DNA from: Balanoglossus misakiensis
Taxonomy: Eukaryota; Animalia; Hemichordata
Assembly: GCA_040954595.2 (NCBI GenBank)
Contig: CM082589.2
Coordinates: 7,623,186 to 7,687,185, forward strand
Direction of reading: 5' to 3'
DNA: 64,000 nucleotides
The translations under genes were made by a program, and so were the position numbers. The notes under the pieces were generated by a model. That model was not told the origin of the DNA, searched no databases, and saw only the letters and a list, made by a program, of their open reading frames with translations. Every line of letters begins with the position of its first letter. Within the stretch, counting starts at the first letter, position 1. Shown in pieces: positions 11,043 to 57,876 of this stretch.

Positions 11043-11606
11043 TTAGGGCCCAAGCGCGCACAAGCGCTTGGGCCCTATTGGTTTCGTTGGAATTTTTTAG
11101 GGCCCAAGCGCACGCAAGCGCTTGGGCCCTATTGGTTTCGTTGGAATTTTTAGGGCCCAAGCGCAAGCAAGCGCTTGGGCCCTATTGGTTTCGTCTGGGT
11201 TTTTCTGTCTTTAGGGCCCAAGCGCTTGCTTGCGCTTGGGCCCTATTGGTTTCGTTGGGGTTTTTTAGGGCCCAAGCCAAGCCAGGCTTGGGCCCTATTG
11301 GTTTCGTTGGTATTTTTCAGTCTTTCTTTCTTTCTTTAGGGCCCAAGCGCAAGCAAGCGCTTGGGCCCTATTGGTTTCGTTGGGGTTTTTCTTTAGGGCC
11401 CAAGCGCAAGCCAGCGCTTGGGCCCTATTGGTTTCGTTGGGGTTTTTTACGGGCCCAAGCCAAGCCAGGCTTGGGCCCGTATTGGTTTCGTTGGAATTTT
11501 TAGGGCCCAAGCGCATACCAGCGCTTGGGCCCTATTGGTTTCGTTGGGGTTTTTACGGGCCCAAGCCAAGCCAGGCTTGGGCCCGTATTGGTTTCGTTGG
11601 AATTTT
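11043..11606 (+). repeat. Stack of ten 5' hairpin heads (~52-71 bp period)
   Basis: Hairpins start at 11046, 11100, 11153, 11214, 11268, 11339, 11396, 11451, 11503, 11557, each followed by TATTGGTTTCGT(T/C)..G and a T tract. Confidence 0.95.
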
Positions 11607-14600
11607 ACTTTCTTTCTTTATTCTTGTGTCAATTCTTTGACCCACGAGATCTCAGACATCGCTGCAGGTACACTTCTGAAACTTGCTACAGTGGTCAAGG
11701 TCAATGAGTAGTCGTGCATTAAACCCTTGAATTTTTAATTAGTCACGTGACCTGGCGGCCATATTGGATTTTCTGAAAATCTTTAAATGGCTTCTTCTCA
11801 AAAACCACAGGGCCAATCAAGTTCAAATTTGGTGTATGGTACACATGTCCTCTGCCCTTCAAAGTTTGACAATAAAATCCTGAGCGGTCACGTGACTTTG
11901 GCCGCCATATTGGATTTTCGAAAAAGTACAGTAAAATCTTCAAAAATCTTCTTCTCCAGAACCGGCAATAACCGAGTCATGGGATTTAGGGTATGACATC
12001 ACCTAACTGATGTCTATCAAGTTTGCGAAGAGCGTTGTGATTGGTCGAAGATAATGGCGGCCATATTGGATTTTGTAAAAACCAGCGAAAATTAAGAAAT
12101 CATTTTTCTAGTCTAAAAATAGATAGCATACAAATTCTTTTTATGGATATGAGTCGTCATATGACTAGAATATGTTGCAAATATTTTGGCAATTTTCACA
12201 TGACCTTTGACCTACTTTTTTAAGAACCTGCATATATGCATATATAGCTCATACAACGTGTTCTAAATGTACCAGAGTTCTGATTTTTGTGCACATTGGT
12301 ATCACCCCTGCCAGGACCTACCCCAAATATTTTGGTAATTTTGGCAATGACCTTTGACCTACTTTTGACACATCGTTTTTTTGCATATCTAATTCCAGGC
12401 TAACCTATAGGGCTATCATTTTGGTTTTTGGTGTATGTGTATTTGTATGTGATCAAAAAATTTCGCTACTTTTCATGACCCCTTTGACCTCTGCTGACCT
12501 CATTAAATATGTGCATACCTAATTACAGATGAACCAATAGACCTAGAGGTTTGGTTTTTGTTGGACATGAACCAGTATTGGGTCAAATTTTTTTGCCCAA
12601 ATGTTGGGTGACCTCGGATGACCTTTGACCTACTTTTGCATATCTCGACATCCACAGCAGATACAGCCTTGGCGTTTGGAGGTTTGGGGCCATAATGAAA
12701 AGCCAAAGTTTTGGGTCACCTGTGACACCTGCTTAACTCATTATTTATGTGCATACCTAATTCCGGGCTAACCAAAAGGGCTAGAGGTCTGGTTTTTGTT
12801 GAACATGGACCACTATGGGTCAACATTTTCTGCCCAAATTTTGGGTGACCTCAGATGACCTTTGACCTACTTAACACTATATCAGCACTAAACATAGATA
12901 TAATCTTGATATTTCATGGGATAAACCACAGCAATTTGTTTCTACTCATTAATTATGTGCATATCTAATAATCAGATCAGATAATAGAGCTTGGGCCCGG
13001 ACAATGCTGCTTGCAGCTTTAATTCTGTCTTTCCTTCTTTCTTCTTTCTTTCTTTCTTTATTCTTGTGTCAATTCTTTGTCGCTCTAGATCTCAGACACC
13101 GCTGCAGGTACACTTCTGAAACTTGCTACAGTGGTCAAGGTCAATGAGTAGTCGTGCATTGAACCTGTGAATTTTTAATTAGTCACGTGACCTGGCGGCC
13201 ATATTGGATTTTCTAAAAAAATGCAAATCTCAGATCTCAGAAACTACAAGTCAGATCAACTTCAAATTTGGCATGCTGGTAGACTACCTTCTACCCATCA
13301 TTTTTGTAATTGGAAATTATGCTGACAATGTTGCAGTTTTTTTGCTACAATTTTTTTTCTGAAATCTGGCTTAAATTTCAAAAATCTTCTTCTCCAGAAC
13401 CGGCAATAACCAAGTCACGCCGTTTGGGGTATGTGGTCACCTAACAGATGTCTATCAAGTTTGCGAAGATCATTGTGATTGGTCGAAGATTATGGCGGCC
13501 ATATTGGATTTTCGAAAAACCATAGTAAAAATTCAAAAATCTTCTTCTCCAGAACGGGCGATAACCGAGTCACAAGATTTGGTGTGTGTGGTCATTAAAG
13601 AGATGTCTATCAAGTTTGCGAAGGGAAATGTGATTGGTCGAAGATTACGGCGGCCATATTGGATTTTGTGAAAAACGATTAAAAAGTAAAAATTCCTTTT
13701 CTAGCCTAAAAATTGATAGCACAGAAATTCTTTTTATGGATATGAATCATCATATGACAAGAATAAGCTATAAATATTTTGGTAATTTTGGCAATGACCT
13801 TTGACCTACTTTTGACGAATCATTTTTCTGCATATCTAATTCCAGGCTAACCAATAGGGCTATAAGTTTGGTTTTTGATGTATGTGGATTTGTATGTGAT
13901 CAAAAAATTTTGCTAGTTTTCATGACCCCTTTAACCTCTGGTGACCTCATTAAATATGCGCATACCTAATTAATGATTAACCAATAGACCTAGAGGTGTT
14001 GTTTTTGTTATACATGGACCAGTATGGGGTCAGAATTTTTTGCCCAAATGTTGGGTGACCTCGGGTGACCTTTGACCTACTTTGGCATATCTTGAAATCC
14101 ACAGCAGATACAGCCTTGGCGTTTGGAGGTATAGGGCCATAATGAAAAGCCAAAGTTTTGGGTCACCTGTGACACCTGCTTAACTCATTATTTATGTGCA
14201 TACCTAATTCCGGGCTAACCAAAAGGGCTAGAGATCTGGTTTTTGTTGGACATAGACCACTATGGGTCAAAATATTCTGCCCAAATAATTGGTGACCTCT
14301 GGGTGACCTTTGACCTACTTAATACTATGTCAACACCAAACCTAGATATAACCTTGATATTTCATGGGATAAAACACAGCATTATGTTTCTACTCATTAA
14401 TTATGTGCATATCTAATAATCAGATCAGATAATAGAGCTTGGGCCCGGACAATGCTGCTTGCAGCTTTAATACTTTCTTTCTTTCTTTATTCTTGTGTCA
14501 ATTCTTTGACCCACGAGATCTCAGACACCGCTGCAGGTACACTTCTGAAACTTGCTACAGTGGTCAAGGTCAATGAGTAGTCGTGCATTGAACCCTTGAA

Positions 14601-15374
14601 TTTTTAATTAGTCACATGACCTGGCGGCCATCTTGGATTTTCTGAAAAAATGCAAATCTCAGATCTCAGAAACTACAAGTCAGATCGACTTCAAATTTGG
14701 CATGCTGGTAGACTACCTTCTTGCAATCATTTTTGTAATTGGAAATTATACTGACAAAGTTGCAATTTTTTGCTACAATTTTTTTTCTGAAATCTGGCTT
14801 AAATTTCAAAAATCTTCTTCTCCAGAACCAGTGATAACCGAGTCACGCGGTTTGGGGTATGTGGTCACCTAACTGATGTCTATCAAGTTTGCGAAGATCA
14901 TTGTGATTGGTTGAAGATTATGGCAGCCATATTGGATTTTCGAAAAACCATAGTAAAATTTCAAAAATCTTCTTCTCAAGAACCGGCGATAACTGAGTCA
15001 CAAGATTTGGTGTGTGTGGTCATTAAACAGATGTCTATCAAGTTTGCGAAGAGGAATGTGATTGGTCGAAGATTATGGCGGCCATATTGGATTTTGTGAA
15101 AAACGATTAAAAAGTAAAAATTCCCTTTCTAGCCTTAAAATTGATAGCACAGAAATTCTTTTTACGGATATGAATCATCATATGCCAAGAATAAGCTATA
15201 AATATTTTGGTAATTTTGGCAATGACCTTTGACCTACTTTTGACGCATGATTTTTCTGCATATCTAATTCCAGGCTAACCAATAGGGCTATAAGTTTGGT
15301 TTTTGATGTATGTGGATTTGTATGTGATCAAAAAATGTTGCTACTTTTCATGACCCCTTTGACCTCTGGTGACC

Positions 15375-16460
15375 TCATTAAATATGCACATACCTAATTA
15401 CAGATGAACCAATAGACCTAGAAGTTTTGTTTTTGTTATACATGGACCAGTATGGGGTCAAAATATTTTGCCCAAATTTTGGGTGACCTCGGGTGACCTT
15501 TGACCTACTTTTGCATATCTTGACATCCACAGCAGATACAGCCTTGGCGTTTGGAGGTATGGGGCAATAATGAAAAGCCAAAGTTTTGGGTCACCTGTGA
15601 TACCTGCTTAACTCATTAATTATGTGCATACCTAATTCTAGGCTAACCAAAAGGGCTAGAGGTCTGTTTTTTGATGGACATGGACCACTATGGGTCAAAA
15701 TTTTCTGCCCAAATTTTGGATGACCTCAGATGACCTTTGACGTACTTTTGCATATCTCGGCATCCAAAGCAGGTACAGCCTTGGCATTTGGAGGTATGGG
15801 GCCATAATGAAAAGCCAAAGTTTTGGGTCACCTGTGACACCTGCTTTACTCATTATTTATGTGCATACCTAATTCTAGGCTAACCAAAAGGGCTAGAGGT
15901 CTGTTTTTTGTTGGATATGGACCACTATGGGTCAAAATTTTCTGCCCAAATTTTGGATGACCTCGGGTGACCTTTGACCTACTTTTGCATATCTTGACAT
16001 CCACAGCAGATACAGCCTTGGCGTTTGGAGGTATGGGGCCATAATGTAAAGCCAAAGTTTTGGGTCACCTGTGACACCTGCTTAACTCATTAATTATGTG
16101 CATACCTAATTCTAGGCTAACCAAAAGGGCTAGAGGTCTGTTTTTTGATGGACATGGACAACTATGGGTCAAAATTTTCTGCCCAAATTTTGGATGACCT
16201 CAGATGACCTTTGACGTACTTTTGCATATCTCGGCATCCAAAGCAGGTACAGCCTTGTCATTTGGAGGTATGGGGCCATAATGAAAAGCCAAAGTTTTGG
16301 GTCACCTGTGACACCTGCTTTACGCATTATGTATGTGCATACCTAATTCCAGGCTAACCAAAAGGGCTAGAGGTCTGGTTTTTGTTGGACATGGACCACT
16401 ATGGGTCAAAATTTTCTGCCCAAATGTTGGGTGACCTCTGGGTGACCTTTGACCTACTTA
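15375..16460 (+). repeat. 237-bp internal tandem repeat expanded to ~4.5 copies in element 3
   Basis: TCACCTGTGA landmark recurs at 15591, 15828, 16065, 16302. Confidence 0.9.
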
Positions 16461-19400
16461 ACACTTTAACAGCACCAAACATACATATAACCTTGATATT
16501 TCATGGGATAAAACAGCATTATGTTTCTACTCATTAATTATGTGCATATCTAATATCAGATCAGATAATAGAGCTTGGGCCCGGACAATGCTGCTTGCAG
16601 CTTTAATCTTTCTTTCTTCTTTCTTTATTCTTGTGTCAATTCTTTGTCGCTCTAGATCTCAGACACCACTGCAGGTACACTTCTGAAACTTGCTACAGTG
16701 GTCAAGGTCAATGAGTAGTCGTGCATTGAACCCTTGAATTTCTAATTAGTCACATGACCTGGCAGCCATCTTGGATTTTCTGAAAATATGCAAATCTCAG
16801 ATCTCAGAAACTACAAGTCAGATCGACTTCAAATTTGGCGTGCAGGTAGACTACCTTCTGCTTATCATTTTTGTAATTGGAAATTTTGCTGTCAATGTTG
16901 CAGTTTTTTTGCTACAGTTGTTTTTCTGAAATCTGGTCAAAATTTCAAAAATCTTCTTCTCCAGAACCGGCGATAACCGAGTCACGCGGTTTGGGGTATG
17001 TGGTCACCAAACTGAGGTCTATCAAGTTTGCGAAGATCATTGTGATTGGTGGAAGATTATGGCGGCCATATTGGATTTTCGAAAAACCCTAGTAAAATTT
17101 CAAAAATCTTCTTCTCAAGAACCGGCGATAACCGAGTCACAAGATTTGGTGTGTGTGGTCATTAAACAGATGTCTATCAAGTTTGCGAAGATCATTGTGA
17201 TTGGTCGAAGATTTTGGCGGCCATATTGGATTTTGTGAACAACGATTAAAAAGTAAAAATTCTGTTTCTAGCCTAAAAATTGATAGCACAGAAATTCTTT
17301 TTATGGATATGAATCATCATATGACAAGAATAACCTATAAATATTTTGATAATTTTGGCAATGACCTTTGACCTACTTTTGACGAATCATTTTTCTGCAT
17401 ATCTAATTCCAGGCTAACCAATAGGGCTATAAGTTTGGTTTTTGATGTATGTGGATTTGTATGTGATCAAAAAATTTTGCTACTTTTCATGACCCCTTTG
17501 ACCTCTGCTGACCTCATTAAATATGCATATACCTAATTACAGATGAACCAATAGACCTAGAGGTTTTGCTTTTGTTATACATGGACCAGTATGGGGTCAA
17601 AATATTTTGCCCAAATGTTGGGTGACCTCGGGTGACTTTTGACCTATTTAACACTATATTAGCATCAGATCAGATAATAGAGCTTGGGCCCGGACAATGC
17701 TGCTTGCAGCTTTAATTCTTTCTTTCTTTAGGGCCCAAGCGCATACCAGCGCTTGGGCCCTATTGGTTTCGTTGGGGTTTTTCAGTCTTTCTTTCCTTCT
17801 TTATTCTTGGTTCCATTTTTCGGCCACCTAAATCTCAAAAACTGCAGCACCAACCAGGCTGAAACTTGGTAGGCAGATAGGGGCCAATCAGTAGATGTGC
17901 AGTGGCTCGTGAATATTTAATTAGTCACGTGACCTGGCGGCCATATTGGATTTTCTGAAAAAATGCAAATCTCAGATCTCAGAAACTACAAGTCAGATTG
18001 ACTTCAAATTTGGTGTGCAGCTAGTATACCTTATGCCCATCATTTTTGTAATTGGATATTATGCTGTCAATGTTGCAGTTTTTTTGCTACAGTTGTTTTT
18101 CTGAAATCTGGTCAAATTTTCAAAAATCTTCTTCTCCAGAACCGGCGATAACCGAGTCACGCCATTTGAGGTATGTGGTCACCCAACTGATGTCTATCAA
18201 GTTTGCGAAGATCATTGTGATTGGTCGAAGATTATGGCGGCCATATTGGATTTTCGAAAAACCATAGTAAAACTTCAAAAATCTTCTTCTCAAGAACGGG
18301 CGATAACCGAGTCACAAGATTTGGTGTGTGTGGTCATTAAACAGATGTCTATCAAGTTTGCGAAGGGGAATGTGATTGGTCGAAGATTATGGCGGCCATA
18401 TTGGATTTTGTGAAAAACGATTAAAAAGTAAAAATTCCCTTTCTAGCCTAAAAATTGATAGCACAGAAATTCTTTTTATGGATATGAATCATCATATGAC
18501 AAGAATAAGCTATAAATATTTTGGTAATTTTGGCAATGACCTTTGACCTACTTTTGACGCATCATTTTTCTGCATATCTAATTCTAGGCTAACCAATAGG
18601 GCTATAAGTTTGGTTTTTGATGTATGTGGATTTGTATGTGATCAAAAAATTTTGCTACTTTTCATGACCCCTTTGACCTCTGCTGACCTCATTAAATATG
18701 CACATACCTAATTACAGATGAACCGATAGACCTAGAGATTTTGTTTTTGTTATACATGGACCAGTATGGGGTCAAAATATTTTGCCCAAATGTTGGGTGA
18801 CCTCGGGTGACCTTTGACCTACTTTTGCATATCTCGACATCCACAGCAGATACAGCCTTGGCATTTGGAGGTATGGGGCCATAATGAAAAGCCAAAGTTT
18901 TGGGTCACCTGTGACACCTGCTTTACTCATTATTTATGTGCATACCTAATTCCGGGCTAACCAAAATGGCTAGAGGTCTGGTTTTTGTTGGACATGGACC
19001 ACTATGGGTCAAAATGTTCTGCCCAAATTGTGGATGACCCCTGGGTGACCTTTGATGTTTCTACTCATTAATTATGTGCATATCTAATAATCAGATCAGA
19101 TAATAGAGCTTGGGCCCGGACAATGCTGCTTGCAGCTTTAATTCTTTCTTTCTTTTTTCTTGTGTCAATTCTTCGGCCAACTAAATCTCTGAAACTACTG
19201 CAGGTACACTGCTCAAACTTGCTACAGTGGTCAAGGTCTATGAGTAGATGTGCAGTGACTTGTGAATACTTAATTAGTCACGTGACTTGGCGGCCATATT
19301 GGATTTTCTGAAAAAATGCAAATCTCAGATCTCAGAAACTACAAGTCAGATCGACTTCAAATTTGGCATGCAGGTAGACTACCTTCTACTCATCATTTTT

Positions 19401-20559
19401 GTAATTGGAAATTTTGCTGTCAATGTTGCAGTTTTTTTGCTACAATTTTTTTTCTGAAATCTGGCTTAAATTTCAAAAATCTTCTTCTCCAGAACCGGTG
19501 ATAACCGAGACACGCGGTTTAGGGTATGTGGTCACCTAACTGATGTCTATCAAGTTTGCGAAGATCATTGTGATTGGTCGAAGATTATGGCGGCCATATT
19601 GGATTTTCGAAAAACCATAGTTAAACTGCAAAAATCTTCTTCTCCAGAACGGGCGATGACTTAGTCGCAAGATTCGAGGAGTATGGTCACTACACTGATG
19701 TCTATCAAGTTTGCAAAGAGCATTGTGATTGGTCGGAGATTATGGCGGCCATATTGGATTTTGTAAAAAGCAGTGAAAAATTGAAATTCCTTTTTCTAGT
19801 CTAAAAATTGATAGCATACAAATTCTTTTTATGGATATCAATCGTCATGTGACTAAAATGTGTTACAATTTTTTGGCGATTTTTCACATGACCTTTGACC
19901 TACTTATCACGCGTTATTATTTCTGCATATCTAATTCCAGGCTAACCTGTAGGGCTAGACGTTTGGTTTTTGATGAATGTGGATTAATGTGTGATCAAAA
20001 TATTTTGCTACTTTTCATGACCCCTTTGACCTCTGCTGACCTCATTAATTATGTGCATAGCTAATTACAGGCGAACCAATAGAGCTAGAGGTTTGGTTTT
20101 TGTTGGACATGGACCAGAATGGGATCAAAATTTTTTGCCCAAATGTTGCGTGACCTCTGGTGACCTTTGACCTACTTTCGCATATCTCAGCATCCAGAGC
20201 AGATACAGCCATGGCATTTGGTAGGATGGGACCAAAATGTAAAGCCACATTTTTGGGTCAACTGTGACACCTGCTGACCTCATTAAATATGCACATACCT
20301 AATTACACGCAAACCAATAGAGCTAGAGTTTTGGTTTTTATTGGACATTATGGGTAAAAAAAAATTACCCAAATGTTGGGTGACCTCAGGTGACCTTTGA
20401 CCTACTTCACCCTATTTCAGCAGCAAAAATACACACATCCTTGTTATGTCATGAGATAATACATCCGATAGAAAATTCTGCTTCTTCTCATTCACACTGT
20501 GCATATATAATTCAAGATCAGCGCTTGGGCCCGACAATGCTGCTCGCAGCTTTAATTCT

Positions 20560-23500
20560 TTAGGGCACAAGCGCCCTCAGGCGCTTGTGCCCTATTGGTT
20601 TTACCCTGTTTTTTAGGGCACAAGCCAAGCAGGCTTGTGCCCTATTGGTATTACTGGGGTTTTTCATCTTTTTTTTTTTTTTTTTTTTCTTGTGTAGTTT
20701 TTTTGCTCAGGTAGATCTTGAAAACGGCTGAACCTACAAATCTCAAACTTGGCACAGTGGTGCAGGCCTATGAGAGCTGGTGCAGTATTCTCGTGAATGT
20801 TTAATAAGTCATGTGACCTGATGTCCATATATGGGCAAAGTTTTCAAATGGGCCTAATTTGCATATGAATGGAGATATCAAAATTCTTTTAGCGATTTTT
20901 GCGGACCATGTGGTCAGTGTCCTACATGCCAAATGTCAAGGCCGTGGGCCAAGTCTATTTTGAGAAGAAGATTTTTTTATTTTTCATATTTTTGGACCCA
21001 GCCATAGGCCTATACTTTCTATAGTTAAGCTATGATGCTATGTCCACGTCGGCTGTGCAATGGTCCTGTACAGTGACTATCTATTGGCCCGTGAGCAGAA
21101 TTGGACCACAATAAAAGGCAAAATTTTGGGCTCACCTGTAACACCTGCTTAACTCATTAATTATGTGCATACCTAATTCCAGGCTAACTAATACGGCTAG
21201 AGGTTTTGTTCTTGTGGGACTTGGACCAGTATGGGATCGAAAATTTTTGCCCAAATTTTGGGTGACCTCAAGTGACCTTTGACCTACTTTCCTATATCTC
21301 GGCATCCACAGCATTTACAGACTTGGCGTTTGGAGGGTTGTGACTAAAATTGAAAAGACTTAATTATGTGCATACCTAATTCCAGGCTAGCCAATAGGGC
21401 TAGAGGTTTGATTTTTGTTGAACATGGACCAGTATGAGGTTAAAATTTCTTGCCCAATTTTAGGTGACCTCAGGTGACCTTTGACCTACTTTACCATATC
21501 TCGGCAACCAGCGCAGATACAGCCTTAGCATTTGGAGGCATGGAACTCCTAATGAAGCCTTATACTTTACCTCATTAATTATGTGCATATCTAATTCTAG
21601 GTGAACCAATAGGGTTAGAGGTCTGATTTTTGTTAGACCTGGACTGGTATGGGGGTCAAAACTTTTTACCCAATTTTTTGGTGACCACATATGACCTTTG
21701 ACCTTCGGCTTAAGCTTGGGCCCGTCATCGCTGCTTGCAGCTATATTTCTTCTACTTCTTTTTCTTGTGCAGTTTTTTTGCCAACTAGGATCTTGGAAAC
21801 GGCTGAAGCTACGAATCTCAAACTTGGCACAATGGTGCAGGTCTATGAGAGCTCGTGCAGTACCCTCGTGAATGTGTAATTAGTCACATGACCTGATGAC
21901 CATATATGGGCAAAGTTTTCAAATGGGCCTAATTTGCATAGTAATGGAGATATCTAAATTCTTTTAGCGATTTTAGCAGACCATGTGGTCAGTGTCCTAC
22001 ATGCCAAATTTCAAGGCCCTGGGCCAAGTCAAGTTTGAGAAGAAGATTTTTAAATATTATATTTCATATTTTTTGTACCCATGAGCCTATACTGTCTTTA
22101 GTTAAGGTGTGATGCTATTCCCACATCTGTGCAATGGTCCTGTACAGTGACAGTCTATTGGCAGTGAGCAGAATGGGACCAAAATAAAAGGCAGAATTTT
22201 GGGCTCACCTGTAACACCTGCTTAACTCATTAATTATGTGCATACCTAATTCTGGGCTAACTAATAGGGCTAGAGGTTTCGTGCTTGTGGGACATGGACC
22301 ATTATAGGGTCAAAATTTCTTGCCCAAATTTTGCATGACCTCAGGTGACCTTTGACCTACTTTCCTATATCTCGTCATCCAGAGCAGGTACAGACTTTGA
22401 GTTTGGAGGGTTGGGACTATAATTGAAAAGCCAAAATTTGGGGTCACCTGTGACACCTGCTTATCTCATTAATTATGTGCATACCTAATTCCAGGCTAAC
22501 CAATAGGGCTAGAGGTTTGATTTTCGTTGAACGTGGACCACTATGGGATAAAATTTCTTGCCAAAATTTTGGGTGACCTCAGGTGACCTTTGACCTACTT
22601 TACCATATCTCGGCAACCAGAGCAGATACAGCCTTGGCATTTGGAGGGATGGAACTCCTAATGGAGCCTTACACTTTACCTCATTAATTATGTGCATACC
22701 TAATTCCAGGCTAGCCAATAGAGCTAGAGGTTTGATTTTTGTTGAACATGGACCAGTATGGGATTAAAATTTCTTGCCCAATTTTGGGTGACCTCAGGTG
22801 ACCTTTGACCTACTTTCCTATATCTCGGCATCCAGAACAGGTACAGCATTTGTGTTTGGATGGATCGAACTTTTGCCCAAATTTTGGGTGACCACATATG
22901 ACCTTTGACCTTCAGCTTAAGCTTGTGCCCGTCATCGCTGCTTGCAGCTATATATATATATTTTTTTTTCTTGTGTAGTTTTTTTGCTCAGTTAGATCTT
23001 GAAAACGGCTGAACCTACAAATCTCAAACTTGGCACAGTGGTGCAGGTCTATGAGAGCTCGTGCAGTACCCTCGTGAATGTGTAATTAGTCACATGACCT
23101 GATGACCATATATGGGCAAAGTTTTCAAATGGGCCTAATTTGCATATGAATGACGATATCAAAATTCTGTGCAATCATTTTGCTGACCATATGGTCAGTG
23201 TCCTACATGCCAAATTTCAAGGCTCTGGGCCAAGTCAATTTTGAGAAGAAGATTTGTAAATATTATATTTCATATTTTTTGGACCCAGCCATAGGCCTAT
23301 ACTTTCTATAGTTAAGCTATGATGCTATGTCCACATCTGTGCAATGTTTAAAAGCCAAAATTGGGGGTCACCTGTGACACCTACTTATCTCATTAATTAT
23401 GTGCATACCTAATTCCAGGCCAACCAATAGGGTTATAGGTTTGGTTTTTGTTGAACATGGACCAGTATAGGGTCAAAATTTCTTGCCCAAATTTTGGGTG

Positions 23501-24019
23501 ACCTCAGGTGACCTTTGACCTACTTTCCTATATCTCCGCTTCCAGAGCAGGTACAGATTTGGCGTTTGGAGGGTTGGGACTAAAATTTAAAAGCCAAAAT
23601 TGGGGGTCACCTGTGACACCTGCTTATCTCATTAATTATGTGCATACCTAATTCCAGGCTAACCAATAGGGCTAGAGGTTTAATTTTTGCTGAACATGGA
23701 CCAGTATGGGGTCAAAATTTCTTGCCCAAATTTTGGGTGACCTCAGGTGACCTTTGACCTACTTTACCATATCCCGGCATGCACAGCAGCTACAGCCTTG
23801 GCATTTGGAGGGATGGAACTCCTGATGGAGCCTTACACTTTATCTCATTAATTATGCACATACATAATTGTAGGCGAACCAATAGGGCTAGAGATTTTGT
23901 TCTTGTGGGACACGGACCAGTATGGGGTCAAAATTTCTTGCCCAAATTTTGGGTGACCACTTATGACCTCTGACCTTCGGCTTAAGCTTGGGCCCGTCAT
24001 CGCTGCTTGCAGCTATATT
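20560..24019 (+). mobile_element. Three divergent 'type B' elements with two GGGCACAAGC heads
   Basis: Distinct body sequence (AAACGGCTGAA..CTCAAACTTGGCACA); tails GCTTG(G/T)GCCCGTCATCGCTGCTTGCAGCTATAT; heads at 20563 and 20616. Confidence 0.8.
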
Positions 24020-41700: not shown

Positions 41701-42060
41701 AGCCTTGGCGTTTTGAGGTATGGGGTCATAATGAAAAGCCAAATTTTTGGGTCACCAGTGACACCTGCTGACCTCATTAAATATGCACATACCTAATTAC
41801 ACGCAAACTAATAGAGCTAGAGTTTTGGTTTTTGTTGGACATGGACCACTATGGGTCAAAATTTTCTGCCCAAATTGTGGGTGACCTCTGGGTGACCTTT
41901 GACCTGCTTAACACTATATCAACACCAAACATAGATATAACCTTGATATGTCATGGGATAAAACACAGCATTATGTTTCTACTCATTAATTATGTGCATA
42001 TCTAATAATCAGATCAGATAATAGAGCTTGGGCCCGGACAATGCTGCTTGCAGCTTTAAT

Positions 42061-43468
42061 CTTTTTCTTCTTCTTCTTCTTCTTCTTCTGTCGTTTTTTC
42101 GGCCAGGTAGATCTGGGAAACGGCTAAACCTACCAATTTCAAACTTGGCACAATGGTGCAGGCCAATGAGAGCTAGTGCAGTACCCTTGTGAATGTTTAA
42201 TTAGTCACGTGACCTGATGACCATATAAGGACAAAATTTTCAAATTGGCCTTATTTGCATATGAATGGACATATCAAAATTCTTTTAGCAAGCTTTACGG
42301 ACCATATGGCCAGGGTTCTACATGCCAAATGTCAAGGCCATAGGCCATGTCAATTTTGATAAGAAGATTTTTAAGTATTATTTTTCATATTTTTCGCCCA
42401 AGCCATGGGCCTATACCTTACATAGTAAAGCTATGAACACATATTATTTTGGATAAATATGCATACATATCTCAAAATCTGTAAGGCCGATCATCTCCAA
42501 CTTTGGTGTGCAGCAAGCCTAGCATTTGTCAATAATTTTAAGCAAAAAAAAATAATATGAAAAATCGACCGATTTTTTTATATTAATTTTTTTATTAAAT
42601 TTATTCCTTTACTTATACCTCTATGGTTAAGCTATGTCCATGTCTTATTGTGGAATTCTTCTGGTCTGTGCAATGTACAGTGACTGTCTATTGGTCAGTG
42701 AGCACAATGGCACCAAAATAAAAGGCAAAATTTTAGGCTCACCTGTAACACCTGCTTAACTCATTAATTATGTGCATACCTAATTCTGGGCTAACTAAGA
42801 GGGCTAGAGGTTTCGTTCTTGTGGGACATGGACCAGTATAGGGTCAAAATTTCTTGCCAAAATTTGGGGTGACCTCAGGTGACCTTTGACCTACTTTCCT
42901 ATATCTCGGCATCCAGAGCAGGTACAGACTTGGCGTTTGGAGGGTTGGGACTTAAGTTGAAAAGCCAAAATAGGGGTCACCTGTGACACCTGCATATCTC
43001 ATTAATTATGTGCATACCTAATTCCAGGCTAACCAATAGGGCTATAGGTTTGGTTTTTGTTGAACGTGGACCAGTATAGGGTCAAAATTTATTGCCCAAC
43101 TTTTGCATGACCTCAGGTGACCTTTGACCTACTTTACCATATCTTGGCATCGAGAGCAGGTACAGACTTGGCGTTTGGAGGGTTGGGACTAAAATTGAAA
43201 AGCCAAATTGGGGGGGTCACCTGTGACACCTGCCTACCTCATTTATTATGTGCATACCTAATTCCAGGCTAACCAATAGGGCTATAGGTTTGGTTTTTGA
43301 TGAACATGGACCAGTATAGGGTCAAAATTTCTCGCCCAAATTTTGCATGACCTCAGGTGACCTTTGACCTTCTTTTCCATATCTTGGCATCCAGAGCAGA
43401 TATGCTTATTGCTATGTTGCTATGTGCTATGTTGGCTTGGGCCCGCCATTGCTGCTTGCAGCTATATT
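42061..43468 (+). mobile_element. Type B element body (its head inferred at 40534)
   Basis: Homologous to the 20690-24019 bodies; tail GCTTGGGCCCGCCATTGCTGCTTGCAGCTATAT. Confidence 0.8.
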
Positions 43469-46400
43469 TACGGGCCCAAGCCAAGCCAGGCTTGGGCCCG
43501 TATTGGTTTCGTTGGGGTTTTTCAGTCTTTCTTTCTTTCCTTCTTTATTCTTGGTTCCATTTTTCGGCCACCTAAATCTCAAAAACTGCAGCACCAACCA
43601 GGCTGAAACTTGGTAGGCAGATAGGGGCCAATGAGTAGATGTGCAGTGGCTCGTGAATATGTAATTAGTCACGTGACCTGGCGGCCATATTGGATTTTCT
43701 GAAAAAATGCAAATCTCAGATCTCAGAAACTACAAGTCAGATTGACTTCAAATTTGGTGTGCAGCTAGTATACCTTATGCCCATCATTTTTGTAATTGGA
43801 TATTATGCTGTCAATGTTGCAGTTTTTTTGCTACAGTTGTTTTTCTGAAATCTGGTCAAAATTTCAAAAATCTTCTTCTCCAGAACCGGCGATAACCGAG
43901 TCACGCTGTTTGGGGTATGTGGTCACCTAACTGATGTCTATCAAGTTTGCGAAGATCATTGTGATTGGTCGAAGATTATGGTGGCCATATTGGATTTTCG
44001 AAAAACCATAGTAAAACTTCAAAAATCTTCTTCTCCAGAACGGGCGATAACCGAGTCAAAATATTTGGTGTGTGTGGTCATTAAACAGATGTCTATCAAG
44101 ATTGCGAAGGGGAATGTGATTGGTCGAAGATTATGGCGGCCATATTGGATTTTGTGAAAAACGATTAAAAAGTAAAAATTCCCTTTCTAGCCTAAACATT
44201 GATAGCACAGAAATTCTTTTTATGGATATGAATCATCAAATGAGAAGAATAAGCTATAAATATTTTGGTAATTTTGGCAATGACCTTTGACCTACTTTTG
44301 ACGCATCATTTTTCTGCATATCTAATTCCAGGCTAACCAATAGGGCTATAAGTTTGGTTTTTGATGTATGTTGATTTGTATGTGATCAAAAAATTTTGCT
44401 ACTTTTCATGACCCCTTTGACCTCTGCTGACCTCATTAAATATGCACATACCTAATTAATGATGAACCAATAGACCTAGAGGTTTTGTTTTTGTTATACA
44501 TGGACCAGTATGGGGTCAAAATATTTTGCACAAATGTTGGGTGACCTCAGGTGACCTTTGACCTACTTTTGCATATCTCGACATCCACAGCAGATACAGC
44601 CTTGGCGTTAGGAGGTATGGGGCTATACTGAAAAGCCAAAGTTTTGGGTCACCTGTGACACCTGCTTAACTCATTATTTATGTGCATACCTAATTCCGGG
44701 TTAACCAAAAGGGCTAGAGGTCTGGTTTTTGTTGGACATGGACCACTATGGGTCAAAATATTCTGCCCAAATTGTGGGTGACCCCTGGGTGACCTTTGAC
44801 CTACTTAACACTATATCAGCACCAAACATAGATATAACCTTGATATTTCATGGGATAAAACACAGCATTATGTTTCTACTCATTAATTATGTGCATATCT
44901 AATAATCAGATCAGATAATAGAGCTTGGGCCCGGACAATGCTGCTTGCAGCTTTAATCTTTCTTTCTTTTTTCTTGTGTCAATTTCTTCGGCCAACGAGA
45001 TCTCTGAAACTACTGCAGGTACACTTCTCAAACTTGCTACAGTGGTCAAGGTCAATGAGTAGATGTGCAGTGACTTGTGAATAATTAATTAGTCACGTGA
45101 CCTGGCGGCCATATTGGATTTTCTGAAAAAATTCAAATCTCAGATCTCAGAAACTACAAGTCAGATCGACTTCAAATTTGGCATGCAGGTAGACTACCTT
45201 CTACCCATCATTTTTGTAATTGGAAATTTTGCTGTCAATGTTGCAGTTTTTTTGCGACAATTTTTTTTCTGAAATCTGGCTTAAATTTCAAAAATCTTCT
45301 TCTCCAGAACCAGTGATAACCGAGACACGGGGTTTGGGGTATGTGGTCACCTAACTGATGTCTATCAAGTTTGCGAAGATCAGTGTGATTGGTCGAAGAT
45401 TATGGCGGCCATATTGGATTTTGGAAAAACCATAGTTAAACTCCAAAAATCTTCTTCTCCAGAACGGGCGATGACTGAGTCGCAAGATTCGGGGAGTATG
45501 GTCACTACACTGATGTCTATCAAGTTTGCAAAGAGCATTGTGATTGGTCGAAGATTATGGCGGCCATATTGGATTTTGTAAAAAGCAGTGAAACATTGAA
45601 ATTCCTTTTTCTAGTCTAAAAATTGATAGCATACAAATTCTTTTTATGGATATCAATCGTCATGTGACTAAAATATGTTACAATTTTTTGGCGATTTTTC
45701 ATATGACCTTTGACCTACTTATCACGCGTTAGTATTTCTGCATATCTAATTCCAGGCTAACCTATAGGGCTAGACGTTTGGTTTTTGATGCATGTGGATT
45801 AGTGTGTGATCAAAATATTTTGCTACTTTTCATGACCCCTTTGACCTCTGCTGACCTCATTAATTATGTGCATAGCTAATTACAGGCGAACCAATAGAGC
45901 TAGAGGTTTGGTTTTTGTTGGACACAGACCAGTATGAGATCAAAAATTTTTGCCCAAATGTTGCGTGACCTCTGGTGACCTTTGACCTACTTTCGCATAT
46001 CTCAGCATCCAGAGCAGATACAGCCATGGCATTTGGTAGGATGGGACCAAAATGTAAAGCCACATTTTTGAGTCACCTGTGACACCTGCTGACCTCATTA
46101 AATATGCACATACCTAATTACAGGCGAACCAATAGAGCTAGAGTTTTGGTTTTTGTTGGACATAGACCAGTATGGGTCAAAAAATTTTGCCCAAATGTTG
46201 GGTGACCTCAGGTGACCTTTGACCTACTTTACCCTATTTCAGCAGCAAAAATACATACGTCTTTGTTATGTCATGAGATAAAACACCTGATAGAGCATTC
46301 TGTTTCTTCTCATTCATACTGTGCATATTATACCGGATCAGCGCTTGGGCCCGACAATGCTGCTTGCAGCTTTAATTTACGGGCCCAAGCCAAGCCAGGC

Positions 46401-49400
46401 TTGGGCCCGTATTGGTTTCGCTAGGGTTTTTCTGTCTTTCTTTCTTTCTTTCTTTCTTTATTCTTGGTTCCATTCTTTATCGCTCTAGATCTCAGACACC
46501 ACTGCAGATACAGTTCTCAAACTTGCTACAGTGGTCAAGGTCAATGAGTAGATGTGCAGTGACTTGTGAATACTTAATTAGTCACGTGACATGGCGGCCA
46601 TATTGGATTTTCTGAAAAAATGCAAATCACAGATCTCAGAAACTACAAGTCAGATCGACTTCAAATTTGGCATGCTGGTAGACTACCTTCTGCCCATCAT
46701 TTTTGTAATTGGAAATTATGCTGACAAAGTTGCAGTTTTTTTGCTACAATTTTTTTTCTGAAATCTGGCTTAAATTTCAAAATTCTTCTTCTCCAGAACC
46801 GGTGATAACCGAGACACGGGGTTTGGGGTATGTGGTCACCTAACTGATGTCTATCAAGTTTGCGAAGATCATTGTGATTGGTCCAAGATTATGGCGGCCA
46901 TATTGGATTTTCGAAAAACCCTAGTAAAATTTCAAAAATCTTCTTCTCAAGAACCGGCGATAACCGAGTCACAAGATTTGGTGTATGTGGTCATTAAACA
47001 TATGTCTATCAAGTTTGCAAAGAAGAATGTGATTGGTTGAAGATTATGGCGGCCATATTGGATTTTGTGAAAAACGATTAAAAAGTAAAAATTCCTTTTC
47101 TAGCCTAATAATTGATAGCACAGAAATTCTTTTTATGGATATGAATCATCATATGACAAGAATAAGCTATAAATATTTTGGTAATTTTGGCAATGACCTT
47201 TGACCTACTTTTGACGCATCATTTTTCTGCATATCTAATTCCAGGCTAACCAATAGGGCTATAAGTTTTGTTTTTGATGTATGTAGATTTGTATGTGATA
47301 AAAAAAATTTGCTACTTTTCATGACCCCTTTGACCTCTGCTGACCTCATTAAATATGTGCATACCTTATTACAGATTAACCAATAGACCTAGAGGTTTGG
47401 GTTTTTTTGGACTTGGATCAGTATGGGGTCAAAATATTTTGCCCAAATGTTGGGTGACCTCGGGTGACCTTTGACCTACTTTTGCATATCTCGGCATCCA
47501 AAGCAGGTACAGCCTTGGCATTTGGAGATATGGGGCCATAATGAAAAGCCAAAGTTTTGGGTCACCTGTGGCCTCTGCTGACCTCATTAATTATGTGCAT
47601 AGCTAATTACAGGCGAACCAATAGAGCTAGAGGTCTGGTTTTTGTTGGACATGGACCACTATGAGTAAACATTTTCTGCCCAAATTTTGGGTGACCTCAG
47701 ATGACCTTTGACCTACTTTTGCATATCACGGCATCCAAAGCAGGTACAGCCTTGGCATTTGGAGATATGGGGCCATAATGAAAAGCCAAAGTTTTGGGTC
47801 ACCTGTGACACCTGCTGACCTCATTTATCATGTGCATAGCTAATTCCAGGCAAACCAAAAGGGCTAGAGGTCTGGTTTTTGTTGGACATGGACCACTATG
47901 GGTCAAAATGTTCTGCCCAAATTGTGGGTGACCTCTGGGTGACCTTTGACCTACTTAACACTATATCAGCACCAAACATAGATATAACCTTGATATTTCA
48001 TGGGATAAAACACAGCATTATGTTTCTACTCATTAATTACGTGCATATCTAATAATCAGATCAGATAATAGAGCTTGGGCCCGGACAATGCTGCTTGCAG
48101 CTTTAATTACGGGCCCAAGCCAAGCCAGGCTTGGGCCCGTATTGGTTTCGCTGGGGTTTTTCTGTCTTTCTTTCTTTCTTTATTCTTGGTTCCATTTTTT
48201 ATCGCTCTAGATCTCAAACACCGCTGCAGGTACAGTTCTCAAACTTGCTACAGTGGTCAAGGTCAATGAGTAGATGTGCAGTGACTTGTGAATACTTAAT
48301 TAGTCACGTGACATGGCGGCCATCTTGGATTTTCTGAAAAAATGCAAATCTCAGATCTCAGAAACTGCAAGTCAGGTCGACTTCAAATTTGGCATGCTGG
48401 TAGACTACCTTCTGCCCATCATTTTTGTAATTAGAAATTATGCTGACAAAGTTGCCGTTTTTTTGCTACAATTTTTTTTCTGAAATCTGGCCTAAATTTC
48501 AAAAATCTTCTTCTCCAGAACCGGTGATAACCGAGACACGGGGTTTGGGGTATGTGGTCACCTAACTGATGTGTATCAAGTTTGCGAAGATCATAGTGAT
48601 TGGTCCTAGATTATGGCGGCCATATTGGATTTTCGAAAAACCCTAGTAAAATTTGAAAAATCTTCTACTCAAGAACCGGCGATAACCGAGTCACAAGATT
48701 TGGTGTGTGTGGTCATTAAACAGATGTCTATCAAGTTTGCGAAGATGAATGTGATTGGTCGAAGATTATTGCGGCCATATTGGATTTTGTGAAAAACGAT
48801 TAAAAAGTAAAAATTCCCTTTCTAGCCTAATAATTAATAGCACAGAAATTCTTTTTATGGATATGAATCATCATATGACAAGAATAAGCTATAAATATTT
48901 TGGTAATTTTGGCAATGACCTTTGACCTACTTTTGACGCATCATTTTTCTGCATATCTAATTCCAGGCTAACCAATAGGGCTATAAGTTTGGTTTTTGAT
49001 GTATGTGGATTTGTATGTGATCAAAAAATTTTGCTACTTCTCATGACCCCTTTGACCTCTGCTGACCGCATTAAATATGCACATACCTAATTAATGATGA
49101 ACCAATAGACCTTGAGGTTTTGTTTTTGTTATACAGTATGGGGTCAAAATATTTTGCCCAAATGTTGGGTGACCTTGGGTGACCTTTGACCTACTTTTGC
49201 ATATCTCGACATCCACAGCAGATACAGCCTTGGCGTTTGGAGGTATGGGGCCATAATGAAAAGCCAAAGTTTTGGGTCACCTGTGACACCTGCCTAACTC
49301 ATTATTTATGTGCATACCTAATTCCAGGCTAACCAAAAGGGCTAGAGGTCTGGTTTTTGTTGGACATGGACCACTATGGGTCAAAATTTTCTGCCCAAAT

Positions 49401-52400
49401 TGTGGGTGACCCCTGGGAGACCTTTGACCTACTTTACACTATATCAACACCAAACATAGATATAACCTTGATATTTCATGGGATAAAACAGAGCATTATG
49501 TTTCTACTCATTAATTATGTGCATATCTAATATCAGATCAGATAATAGAGCTTGGGCCCGGACAATGCTGCTTGCAGCTTTAATTCTTTCTTTATTCTTG
49601 TGTCAATTCTTCGGCCAACTAAATCTCTGAAACTACTGCAGGTACACTGCTCAAACTTGCTACAGTGGTCAAGGTCAATGAGTAGATGTGCAGTGACTTG
49701 TGAATACTTAATTAGTCACGTGACCTGGCGGCCATATTGGATTTTCTGAAAAAATGCAAATCTCAGATCTCAGAAACTACAAGTCAGATCGACTTCAAAT
49801 TTGGCATGCCGGTAGACTACCTTCTGCCCATCATTTTTGTAATCGGAAATTATGCTGTAAAAGTTGCAGTTTTTTTGCTACAATTTTTTTTCTGAAATCT
49901 GGCTTAAATTTCAAAAATCTTCTTCTTCAGAACCAGTGATAACCGAGTCACGGGGTTTGGGGTATGTGGTCACCTAACTGATATCTATCAAGTTTGCGAA
50001 GATCATTGTGATTGGTCGAAGATTATGGCGGCCATATTGGATTTTCGAAAAACCATAGTAAAACTGCAAAAATCTTCTTCTCCAGAACGGGTGATGACTG
50101 AGTCGCAAGATTCGGGGAATATGGTCACTACACTGATGTCTATCAAGTTTGCAAAGAACATTGTGATTGGTCGAAGATTGTGGCGGCCATATTGGATTTT
50201 GTAAAAAGCAGTGAAAAATTGAAATTCCCTTTTCTAGTCTAAAAATTGATAGCATACAAATTCTTTTTATGGATATCAATCGTCAGGTGACTAAAATATG
50301 TTACAATTTTTTGTCGATTTTTCACATGACCTTTGACCTACTTATCACGCGTTATTATTTCTGCATATCTAATTCCAGGCTAACCTATAGGGCTAGACGT
50401 TTGGTTTTTGATGAACATGGATTAGTGTGTGATCAAAATATTTTGCTACTTTTCATGACCCCTTTGACCTCTGCTGACCTCATTAATTATGTGCATAGCT
50501 AATTACAGGCGAACCAATAGAGCTAGAGGTTTGGTTTTTGTTGGACATGGACCAGTATGGGATCAAAATTTTTTGCCCAAATGTTGGGTGACCTCTGGTG
50601 ACCTTTGACCTACTTTCGCATATCTCAGCATCCAGAGCAGATAAAGCCATGGCATTTGGTAGGATGGGACCAAAATGTAAAGCCACATTTTTGGGTCACC
50701 TGTGACACCTGCTGACCTCATTAAATATGCACATACCTAATTACAGGCGAACCAATAGAGCTAGAGTTTTGGTTTTTGTTGGACATGGACCAGTATGGGT
50801 AAAAAAAAATTGCCCAAATGTTGGGTGACCTCAGGTGACCTTTGACCTACTTCACCCTATTTCAGCAGCAAAAATACACACATCCTCGTTATGTCATGAG
50901 ATAATACATCTGATAGAAAATTCTGTTTCTTCTCATTCATACTGTGCATATATAATTCAAGATCAGCGCTTGGGCCCGACAATGCTGCTCGCAGCTTTAA
51001 TCTTTCTTTCTTTCTTTATTCTTGTGTCAATTCTTCGGCCAACTAAATCTCTGAAACTACTGCAGGTACACTGCTCAAACTTGCTACAGTGGTCAAGGTC
51101 TATGAGTAGATGTGCAGTGACTTGTGAATACTTAATTAGTCACGTGACCTGGCGGCCATATTGGATTTTCTGAAAAAATGCAAATCTCAGATCTCAGAAA
51201 CTACAAGTCAGATCGACTTCAAATTTGGCATGCAGGTAGACTACCTTGTACCCATCATTTTTGTAATTGGAAATTTTGCTGTCAATGTTGCAGTTTTTTT
51301 GCTACAATTTTTTTTCTGAAATCTGGCTTAAATTTCAAAAATCTTCTTCTCCAGAACCAGTGATAACCGAGACACGGGGTTTGGGGTAAGTGGTCACCTA
51401 ACTGATGTCTATCAAGTTTGCGAAGATCATCGTGATTGGTCGAAGATTATGGCGGCCATATTGGATTTTCGAAAAACCATAGTTAAACTCCAAAAATCTT
51501 CTTCTCCAGAACGGGCGATGACTGAGTCGCAAGATTCGGGGAGTATGGTCACTACACTGATGTCTATCAAGTTTGCAAAGAGGATTGTGATTGGTCGAAG
51601 ATTATGGCGGCCATATTGGATTTTCTAAAAAGCAGTGAAAAATTGAAATTCCTTTTTCTAGTCCAAAAATTGATAGCATACAAATTCTTTTTATGGATAT
51701 CAATCGTCATGTGACTAAAATATGTTACAATTTTTTGGCGATTTTTCACATGACCTTTGACCTACTTATCACGCGTTATTATTTCTGCATATCTAATTCC
51801 AGGCTAACCTATAGGGCTAGACGTTTGGTTTTTGATGCTTGTGGATTAGTGTGTGATCAAAATATTTTGCTACTTTTCATGACCCCTTTGACCTCTCCTG
51901 ACCTCATTAATTATCTGCATAGCTAATTACAGGCGAACCAATAGAGCTAGAGGTTTGGTTTTTGTTGGACATGGACCAGTATGGGATCAAAATTTTTTGC
52001 CCAAATGTTTGGTGACCTCTGGTGACCTTTGACCTACTTTCGCATATCTCAGCATCCAGAGCAGATACAGCCATGGCATTTGGTAGGATGGGACCAAGAT
52101 GTAAAGCCACATTTTTGGGTCACCTGTGACACCTGCTGACCTCATTAAATATGCACATACCTAATTACAGGCGAACCAATAGAGCTAGAATTTTGGTTTT
52201 TGTTGGACATGGACCAGTATGGGTAAAAAAAAATTGCCCAAATGTTGGGTGACCTCAGGTGACCTTTGACCTACTTCACCCTATTTCAGCAGCAAAAATA
52301 CACACATCCTTGTTATGTCATGAGATAATACATCTGATAGAAAATTCTGTTTCTTCTCATTCATACTGTGCATATATAATTCAAGATCAGCGCTTGGGCC

Positions 52401-52979
52401 CGACAATGCTGCTCGCAGCTTTAATTTGCTTTTGGGTTCATTAAAATGCAGTTTTGAACTCTGTATTTTGTAAAATTTTCTTACAAACCCACCCCCTTCA
52501 CTTCTCGGTTTACAATGTCTCCCAACACAGAATACAAAATACTTAAAAAATAGAAACAATTTTCAGTTTTAATACCCACTGATAAGGGGAAACATCAGTT
52601 TCAAATTCTTTTCATGGGAGCGCTGTTTTTCTTTTTTACAAGATAGATAGGTGATGTGTTTTGCTCTGTGAAAGAAAATGGGGGGGGGGGATTTGAAAAT
52701 TTTAGCAGTTCGGAAGGGGGGGGATTTGAAAGTATTTCGGGTTGTTGAGGGGGGCATGTGAAAATTAACGGTAAAAAAAATTGAATTCTCCCGCCCCCCC
52801 CCCTCCAGAGGTGTTTGTGAATGCAGCCTAAGAACTGCAATGTTAACGAAGGTGCACAGATGAAACAGCAGTGCAACTTCATAGTGCTAGTTCAACTCTT
52901 TCACCAACTTGGGTCATTCAAAAACCATGTTTTTAATGGTAAAGTTGGACCTCTAAAGAAGGGACCAGGGGTGAAAGGG

Positions 52980-54684: not shown

Positions 54685-55159
<475 letters not shown>

Positions 55160-57705: not shown

Positions 57706-57752
<47 letters not shown>

Positions 57753-57845
57753 ATGTATGTATGTATGTATGTATGTGTGTGTATGTATGTATGTATGTAT
57801 GTATGTATGTATGTATGTATGTATGTATGTATGTATGTATGTATG

Positions 57846-57876
<31 letters not shown>

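What the first reader, a model, noticed from the sequence alone, without database searches (positions are those of the whole stretch)
11046..52425. Head loop sequences behave as barcodes that predict the tail closing them up to 41 kb away
Seen: under last-in-first-out pairing, all 9 heads with AAGCAA/TTGCTT/ACGCAA/GCACAA/ACAGCA loops pair with the 9 bodies ending CAGCGCTTGGGCCCGAC. All 13 heads with ATACCA/AAGCCA/CCAAGCCAGG loops pair with bodies ending AGAGCTTGGGCCCGGAC (14 present). Type B is 3 heads to 4 bodies; type C is 1 to 1. Finer matches: AAGCCA heads (11396, 32776) both close on bodies with the CCAA(A/G)CTGAGGTCT variant (~17005, ~34700). TTGCTT heads (11214, 27135) both close on the near-identical bodies starting 37625 and 30152. 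Heads 11557 and 32830 both precede the same distinctive body type. The choice of the two headless bodies was guided by these classes, so the test is not fully independent.
Basis: seen in the sequence. Interest (0 to 1): 0.8.

Follow-up and report, generated by a model that had tools for sequence, protein, structure and literature searches.

The report
Ten-deep nest of self-inserting rolling-circle transposons
Twenty-eight small non-coding transposon copies, likely of the rolling-circle Helentron type, sit one inside another over 41 kb, so each start matches its far-away end most likely because both are halves of one element, not because the loop is a recognition code.

Summary
The pairing is real; the 'barcode' reading is not needed. 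At 11044-52425 lie 26 hairpin heads and 28 bodies with tails, all on +. Last-in-first-out pairing matches head class to tail class in 26 of 26; 0 of 200,000 shuffles reach that, even when free to pick the two headless bodies. The units have the anatomy of non-autonomous Helentrons (HINE/DINE-1): subterminal inverted repeats, 5' hairpin, microsatellite, central repeats, 3' hairpin, no ORF. They insert into T runs with no target duplication. Every inner copy landed in the T tract behind another copy's head, so head and tail are halves of one element. Below subfamily level, loops do not predict bodies (Mantel p 0.25 and 0.43), and two uninterrupted copies 2.3% apart carry different loops. What remains of interest is target choice: 19 of 25 insertions lie 22-26 nt behind a subterminal-repeat motif. 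Helitron2 self-insertion is in print (PMC5148889). This scan has noted such stacks before, in five notes from other genomes (unchecked).

The parts
10658..11043 (.). Left part of a MITE-like host repeat; 46-48 bp terminal inverted repeat at 10658-10703
   Evidence: blastn inverted match to 52784-52831, 94%; high contig depth over this part
52426..52831 (.). Right part of the same MITE-like host repeat; terminal inverted repeat at 52784-52831
   Evidence: contigs join this part to left-flank-like letters without the nest, and loose ends vary behind 52829-52834
11044..52425 (+). Whole nest = outermost A1 element (head 11046, loop GCACAA; body about 51000-52425) holding 27 further copies
11044..11610 (+). 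Stack of 10 heads (hairpin + ATTGG spacer + T tract) at 11046, 11100, 11153, 11214, 11268, 11339, 11396, 11451, 11503, 11557 = nesting depths 1-10
   Evidence: hairpin folds
11098..51001 (+). A1 element, depth 2 (ACGCAA head; tail 50968)
11151..40453 (+). A1 element, depth 3 (AAGCAA; tail 40420)
11212..39037 (+). A1 element, depth 4 (TTGCTT; tail 39004), sister of 27135/31538
11266..27066 (+). A2 element, depth 5 (CCAAGCCAGG; tail 27032)
11337..20556 (+). A1 element, depth 6 (AAGCAA; tail 20523)
11394..17716 (+). A2 chain, depths 7-10: heads 11396, 11451, 11503, 11557 closing on tails 17682, 16573, 14437, 12989
17729..19142 (+). Uninterrupted A2 element (ATACCA); body 2.3% from 44923, which has another loop
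20561..24018 (+). B group: heads 20563 and 20616; bodies ending 21714, 22921 and headless 23986
24020..25493 (+). Uninterrupted A2 element (ATACCA) abutting tail 23986
27067..32773 (+). C element (head 27070, tail 32739; 12-bp subterminal repeat) holding an A1 chain: heads 27135, 27192, 27246 closing on 31538, 30118, 28688
32774..37624 (+). A2 group: heads 32776 (AAGCCA) and 32830; bodies ending 34265, 35933 and headless 37590
40478..46376 (+). A1 element (ACGCAA; tail 46343) holding B element 40534/43435 (which holds A2 40585/42026) and A2 43472/44923
46378..49584 (+). Two uninterrupted A2 elements (46381/48073 and 48111/49550) abutting tail to head
52392..52425 (+). Example tail: 3' subterminal repeat GCTTGGGCCC, GCTGC-NN-GCAGC hairpin, TTTAAT end
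13373..13676 (+). Example of the central 155-bp repeat (2-3 copies per A body); a 237-bp repeat follows (e.g. 15374-16459, 4.6 copies)

Best explanation
This is a 41-kb Russian-doll nest of 28 non-coding transposon copies, likely non-autonomous Helentrons (HINE), each lying in the T-rich tract just behind the 5' hairpin of another copy, so a head and the tail that closes it are most likely the two halves of one element and share its subfamily marks. Shown: anatomy, LIFO match, insertion positions, no target duplication, empty host site. Inferred: a Rep/helicase supplied in trans by an autonomous Helentron elsewhere in the genome inserts one copy at a time. Each copy carries the preferred target (a T5 run and (TTTC)n array) behind its own head. 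An insertion splits the host's target and brings a fresh one, so stacks grow inward and heads pile up at one side. Loop and tail variants mark subfamilies by descent. Occasional loss of one 53-70 bp head unit between neighbouring near-identical heads, or copying from an inner head to an outer tail, would explain both the two headless bodies and the loop swaps on near-identical bodies.
For: (1) LIFO 26 of 26, never reached in 200,000 shuffles; Mantel p 5e-5; FIFO r 0.14. (2) Removing inner copies restores head-T run-(TTTC)n-body. The first T run is 5 T in 9 of 10 uninterrupted copies (4 in one); it is exactly 2 T longer in 8 of 9 hosts with one insertion there (the ninth, B head 20563, has 9 T), so no duplication. 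(3) Contigs of public runs join the right flank at 52421 to letters ending like the left flank (X1 6 contigs, X2 8, X5 1), giving the empty paralogous site in the host MITE, again with no duplication. (4) All 25 inner headed insertions lie within 53 nt of the host head once headless body 23986 is counted as an element (the script counted it as host DNA and gave 1116 for head 24022); that zone holds 13% of TT sites. TTTCTTT occurs 32 times in the zone and 0 times elsewhere on either strand of 9 uninterrupted A copies. (6) Uninterrupted versus host status is shared with the nearest body in 24 of 28 (p 0.002) and 14 of 14 A2 bodies (p 0.002), as expected from waves of subtype activity. (7) HINE anatomy and T-rich, duplication-free insertion are as in PMC4067079 and PMC7492417; self-insertion giving multiple 5' ends was proposed in PMC5148889.
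Against: No autonomous partner was seen: no genome is held, so the Helentron link rests on structure. Whole solo copies elsewhere in this genome could not be tabulated; contigs are too short to link head to tail. Two (TTTC)n tracts in the left flank (positions 86, 648) hold no copy, and the outermost site is not (TTTC)n, so microsatellite preference alone may be too weak (a Polya model with 2 flank sites gives p 0.002 for 27 of 27 in the nest, before allowing for the window having been picked). The order of events (inner = younger) is not proven; nests could also have moved as composites. The 3' subterminal repeat ends 24-26 nt from the element end, closer than the 38-60 bp given for mite HINEs.
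Confidence: 0.87

Rival explanations
1. Same nest, but the target is set by the transposon end itself: the transposase binds a resident GCTT(G/T)GCCC motif (right arm of a head hairpin or a 3' subterminal repeat) and inserts at T's about 22-26 nt downstream, the register of the element's own 3' end.
For: 19 of 25 inner insertions lie 22-26 nt behind the nearest such motif; 6 heads abut a preceding tail with only 2-3 T between. In 5 of 5 untied abutting pairs the left copy holds more nested copies (hand count; one tie), so new copies seem to land behind existing tails. Free (TTTC)n tracts in the flank are unused.
Against: 6 of 25 lie at 29-49 nt. The first T run sits at a fixed distance from the hairpin anyway, and the spot behind a tail is also the 5' edge of the leftover (TTTC)n array, so the window cannot separate the two rules. 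The outermost insertion has no such motif upstream.
Confidence: 0.3
2. Nests move as composites: a donor stack is copied from an outer head to an outer tail and inserted into a new host copy, so the stack grows outward and depth does not record time.
For: Depth 10 exceeds random attachment (p 0.014). Headless bodies fit copying from an inner head to an outer tail. Multi-headed FoHeli copies were shown to transpose (PMC5148889 section 10).
Against: No duplicated sub-nest in the window: the two AAGCCA sub-nests differ in content and by 7% and 4% in their bodies. No head lacks a body, which sloppy composite copying would be expected to leave. Uninterrupted copies are each other's nearest relatives.
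Confidence: 0.15
3. The loop is a functional code: it pairs with, or is read together with, a cognate tail so that the transposase closes the right end across nested copies.
For: Perfect class match; subterminal repeats co-vary by class (12-13 bp A1, 10-11 bp A2, 12 bp C).
Against: No loop-tail complementarity beyond the subterminal repeat; the last bases of all 14 A2 tails are alike while they carry three loops. No within-class signal. Near-identical uninterrupted copies carry different loops. Head 20616 mismatches its own adjacent tail in the repeat core (9 of 10). Linkage explains the match without any code.
Confidence: 0.04
4. Assembly artefact, or tandem or unequal-crossover satellite array.
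For: Heads form a 53-bp tandem array and bodies a 1.4-kb array.
Against: Bodies differ by 2-45% and neighbours are not the closest relatives. Tandem processes give head-tail-head-tail or FIFO order, which fits poorly. T counts at junctions add up per insertion.
Confidence: 0.03

Closest known systems
DINE-1 / HINE non-autonomous Helentrons (Thomas, Vadnagara and Pritham 2014, PMC4067079; passages and section 16 read)
   Same: 5' subterminal repeat with nearby inverted repeat, microsatellite, central repeats, 3' subterminal repeat and stem-loop, no coding capacity, T-rich target, no target modification, variable T count at ends
   Different: Copies are described as interspersed; no stacked self-nesting in the passages read; mite HINE 3' repeats lie 38-60 bp from the end against 24-26 here
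Cg_HINE of the Pacific oyster (PMC7492417; passages and section 9 read)
   Same: 11-12 bp subterminal repeats often with one mismatch, IR 1-12 bp away, 4-nt microsatellite, central tandem repeats, subfamily-diagnostic changes running through both ends, TT target without duplication, insertion into other repeats
   Different: Microsatellites mostly GTCY rather than TTTC; elements reported as dispersed in both orientations, with no nests in the section read
FoHeli (Helitron2) of Fusarium oxysporum with multiple 5' termini (PMC5148889, passages and section 10 read; PMC13342296, passages read)
   Same: Self-insertion near the 5' end giving stacked heads (31-85 nt units, up to five), proposed source of chimeric elements
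   Different: There, several heads share one 3' end and one nested example was seen; here 26 heads keep their own bodies and tails, 10 levels deep, across four subfamilies
HLE2 class and HelenXT233 of Xenopus with two alternative left ends (PMC11417382; passages and section 18 read)
   Same: Short terminal inverted repeats, 3' stem-loop, T-T insertion; two left ends in direct repeat, each marking a subfamily
   Different: Two left ends on one autonomous element; no deep nest described in what was read

Membership tests
HINE / DINE-1-like non-autonomous Helentron (HLE2) | Subterminal inverted repeats of about 11-15 bp | tested here: met
   9-13 bp between LIFO partners; 11 bp or more in 17 of 26, 10 bp in 8, 9 of 10 in 1
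HINE / DINE-1-like non-autonomous Helentron (HLE2) | Short inverted repeat close to the 5' subterminal repeat (5' hairpin) | tested here: met
   26 of 26 heads; 4 of 4 folded heads give 13-17 bp stems, -16 to -21 kcal/mol
HINE / DINE-1-like non-autonomous Helentron (HLE2) | Microsatellite behind the head and central tandem repeats | tested here: met
   (TTTC)n, (TTC)n, (TTA)n or T run; 155-bp and 237-bp repeats
HINE / DINE-1-like non-autonomous Helentron (HLE2) | Stem-loop after the 3' subterminal repeat | tested here: met
   GCTGC-NN-GCAGC in 28 of 28 tails; folded in 4 of 4 tried
HINE / DINE-1-like non-autonomous Helentron (HLE2) | Insertion into T-rich DNA (T-T) without target duplication | tested here: met
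   peeled sites and T counts; empty host site in contigs; how the two terminal T's divide between the ends is ambiguous
HINE / DINE-1-like non-autonomous Helentron (HLE2) | No coding capacity; interspersed multicopy family | tested here: met
   no ORF of 150 aa or more in the nest; summed contig depth over the body about three orders above the flank (not a copy number)
HINE / DINE-1-like non-autonomous Helentron (HLE2) | Autonomous Rep/helicase(-endonuclease) partner sharing the ends | not testable with these tools
   no genome held; no eukaryotic repeat library available
Canonical Helitron (HLE1) | 5' TC, 3' CTRR, insertion between A and T | tested here: not met
   ends are T-AGGG / T-ACGG / T-GGGG and TTTAAT / TATAT
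Cut-and-paste MITE | Terminal inverted repeats at the very ends and a target-site duplication | tested here: not met
   3' repeat is 24-26 nt inside the end; no duplication
Functional end-recognition barcode | Loop predicts or pairs with its tail beyond subfamily descent | tested here: not met
   within-class Mantel p 0.25 and 0.43; discordant sister copies; no loop-tail pairing

The most novel reading that the evidence does not exclude
Helentron transposase uses a resident copy's subterminal repeat as a landing mark and inserts 22-26 nt downstream, in the register of its own 3' end: a built-in self-targeting rule. It would park new copies inside old ones, let four subfamilies share one hot spot, turn nests into dated records of subfamily activity, and make them the place where heads are swapped to found new subfamilies.
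Probability: 0.3. Interest if true: 0.65.

Novelty: new member of a known kind. Interest (0 to 1): 0.38.

Why it matters
The barcode itself is ordinary descent. The nest is useful as a natural experiment. How Helentrons choose targets is stated as unresolved in PMC4067079 (section 16), and this locus gives 25 insertions measured against one template, with a sharp register behind the element's own end motif. It preserves the intermediate that PMC5148889 proposed for multi-headed Helitron2 elements, and it shows loop swaps and head losses beside it. It also warns annotators that such arrays look like satellites, and that head-tail pairing by proximity mis-assigns 16 of 26 heads.

Tried and rejected
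Head pattern: 0 hits in viral contigs; 2 hits in metagenome contigs, both lone hairpins in prokaryote-like coding DNA without spacer, microsatellite or body, rejected as chance. Tail pattern: 0 hits in genome and viral contigs. Laid contigs are too short to link head to tail; no piece spans either stretch. One joint, 11394 to 11610 in X1, shows head running straight into body, but it does not type the tail. The 3'-200 region distances were spoiled by poor column overlap (many zeros) and are not used; tails were realigned. The best label-free Mantel score is flat over the top headless choices (0.613-0.620) and does not pick 23986/37590; that choice rests on class and fine markers. FIFO, tandem-array and crosswise circle-recombination readings were rejected (and order of ends). 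A (GAAA)n-targeting lepidopteran Helitron paper is not held; only its title was seen in a reference list. No deep LIFO nest in print was found in searches (listings only, except the papers named); subscription journals and Repbase are not covered, and no supplements were read.

Full report
Setting. The window is 39% GC with no ORF of 150 aa or more before 54.6 kb. It has long microsatellites, and is taken to be animal DNA by inference. No genome is held. I read 10501-58100 directly.

Anatomy. A pattern parse finds 26 heads and 28 tails, all on +, between 11046 and 52425; blastn with an A and a B body found no copy in the flanks. A head is GGGC(C/A)CAAGC-loop-GCTT(G/T)GCCC, then a 17-nt spacer, a T5 run and a (TTTC)n-type array. 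A body is 1.07-2.14 kb with 155-bp and 237-bp internal repeats. A tail is GCTT(G/T)GCCC, a GCTGC-NN-GCAGC hairpin and TTTAAT or TATAT. Bodies fall into A1 (9; 2-7% apart), A2 (14), B (4) and C (1), with 100/100 or 100/99 support for A1, A and B. These are the features listed for DINE-1 and HINE elements in PMC4067079 (passages), PMC7492417 and PMC11417382.

Check of the pairing. Last-in-first-out pairing was run for all 378 choices of two headless bodies. Fifteen choices give 26 of 26 class matches, all needing one B and one A2 body. Shuffling head labels and again taking the best of 378 choices never reached 26: the maximum was 22 in 200,000 full shuffles and 25 in 200,000 shuffles of only the 16 heads not adjacent to their body. 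As the classes were drawn with tails in view, I added a label-free Mantel test with the same maximisation: r 0.62, p 5e-5 and 0.001 in 20,000 shuffles each; the best FIFO pairing reaches 0.14.

Limits of the barcode. Within A1 and A2, head distance does not predict whole-body distance (p 0.25, 0.43); 1 of 10 region tests was nominally significant. Median body distance for same-loop against different-loop pairs is 4.4 vs 4.3% in A1 and 8.0 vs 7.6% in A2. Of five strongly supported sister pairs of A bodies, three share a loop and two do not; one discordant pair (19108, 44923) is unambiguous because both bodies follow their heads directly. Complementarity between partners is the 9-13 bp subterminal repeat. 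So loops mark subfamilies, are swapped now and then, and show no sign of coding for a tail.

Why heads and tails match. Removing inner copies by coordinates restores head, T run, microsatellite and body in every host. The first T run is 5 T in 9 of 10 uninterrupted copies and 4 T in one. It is exactly 2 T longer in 8 of 9 hosts with one insertion there (the ninth is B head 20563, 9 T), 10 T with two insertions and 12 T with three. Each insertion therefore adds its two terminal T's and occasionally one more, with no duplication. The flanks are two halves of one MITE-like repeat. Contigs of public runs (X1 6, X2 8, X5 1) run from letters ending like the left flank into position 52421, giving the empty paralogous site; X1 and X2 are one sample and may be the source of the window. 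The nest is thus one insertion point filled 28 times, and partner ends are halves of one element.

Target choice. All 25 inner headed insertions fall in the tract behind a host head (within 53 nt, counting headless body 23986 as an element). That zone holds 13% of TT sites in the 24 peeled copies counted. TTTCTTT occurs only in that zone in 9 uninterrupted A copies. Nineteen of 25 sites lie 22-26 nt behind the nearest GCTT(G/T)GCCC motif, and six heads abut a tail. The nest is deeper (p 0.014) and has fewer uninterrupted copies (p 0.009) than random attachment, and uninterrupted copies are each other's nearest relatives (24 of 28, p 0.002). My preferred reading (inferred) is that each copy carries its own preferred target, which an insertion uses up and the newcomer renews, with subtypes active in overlapping waves. 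Bodies only 2.5% apart sit four levels apart, so the stack formed quickly. The rival, that the transposase registers on a resident end motif, fits the 22-26 nt peak and the unused flank tracts but cannot be separated from the first inside one window.

Headless bodies. Both missing heads would sit at the outer edge of a local head stack (before 20563 and before 32776). Body 37590 starts identically to 27032. Deletion between neighbouring 53-70 bp head units, or copying from an inner head to an outer tail, would give this, and the same events would swap loops. Neither is shown.

Known and new. Self-insertion giving stacked 5' ends was proposed for Fusarium Helitron2 elements (PMC5148889; up to five ends in PMC13342296). 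Xenopus HelenXT233 has two subfamily-marking left ends. I found no paper describing a deep bracket-like nest in searches, which cover open-access text only; no supplements were read. The scan's own notes list five similar stacks from other genomes (unchecked, consulted after my reading was fixed) and no sequence look-alike. Verdict: a real, well-supported nest of a known transposon kind. The barcode is descent; the open and testable part is the targeting rule. Interest 0.38.

Noticed in passing
window 10658-11043 and 52426-52831: High-copy MITE-like element of about 790 bp with 46-48 bp terminal inverted repeats and TA on both outer sides; it hosts the whole nest. Superfamily not determined.
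   Followed up: partly
window 11777 and 33049 (bodies ending 12989 and 34265): Two sister A2 bodies differ by about 20% from other A2 bodies in their 5' half but have A2 tails; likely recombinants with another subfamily.
   Followed up: partly
window 27320-27500 (body ending 28688): A1 body whose first 150 nt are closest to A2 body 27032 (3%): mosaic element.
   Followed up: partly
window 20563 and 27070: A B-type head and the C-type head share the unusual loop GCCCTCAGGC although their bodies are 37% apart, a further hint of head exchange between subfamilies.
   Followed up: no
window 52983-53230 and 53879-54148: Two 70%-similar copies of another repeat starting in a (CAGA)n microsatellite; long (GATA)n (54780-55159) and (TGTA)n (57706-58311) arrays nearby.
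   Followed up: no
window 56783-57625: Probable exons of a secreted-protein gene; from recall it resembles a signal peptide plus subtilisin-type propeptide, but Pfam gave only a sub-threshold DUF1430 hit for ORF 56729-57199.
   Followed up: partly
runs X5 and X6 (organism B, coded): A second labelled organism holds related element and host-MITE sequence at low depth (26% of words; pieces); whether this is a relative or carry-over was not resolved.
   Followed up: no
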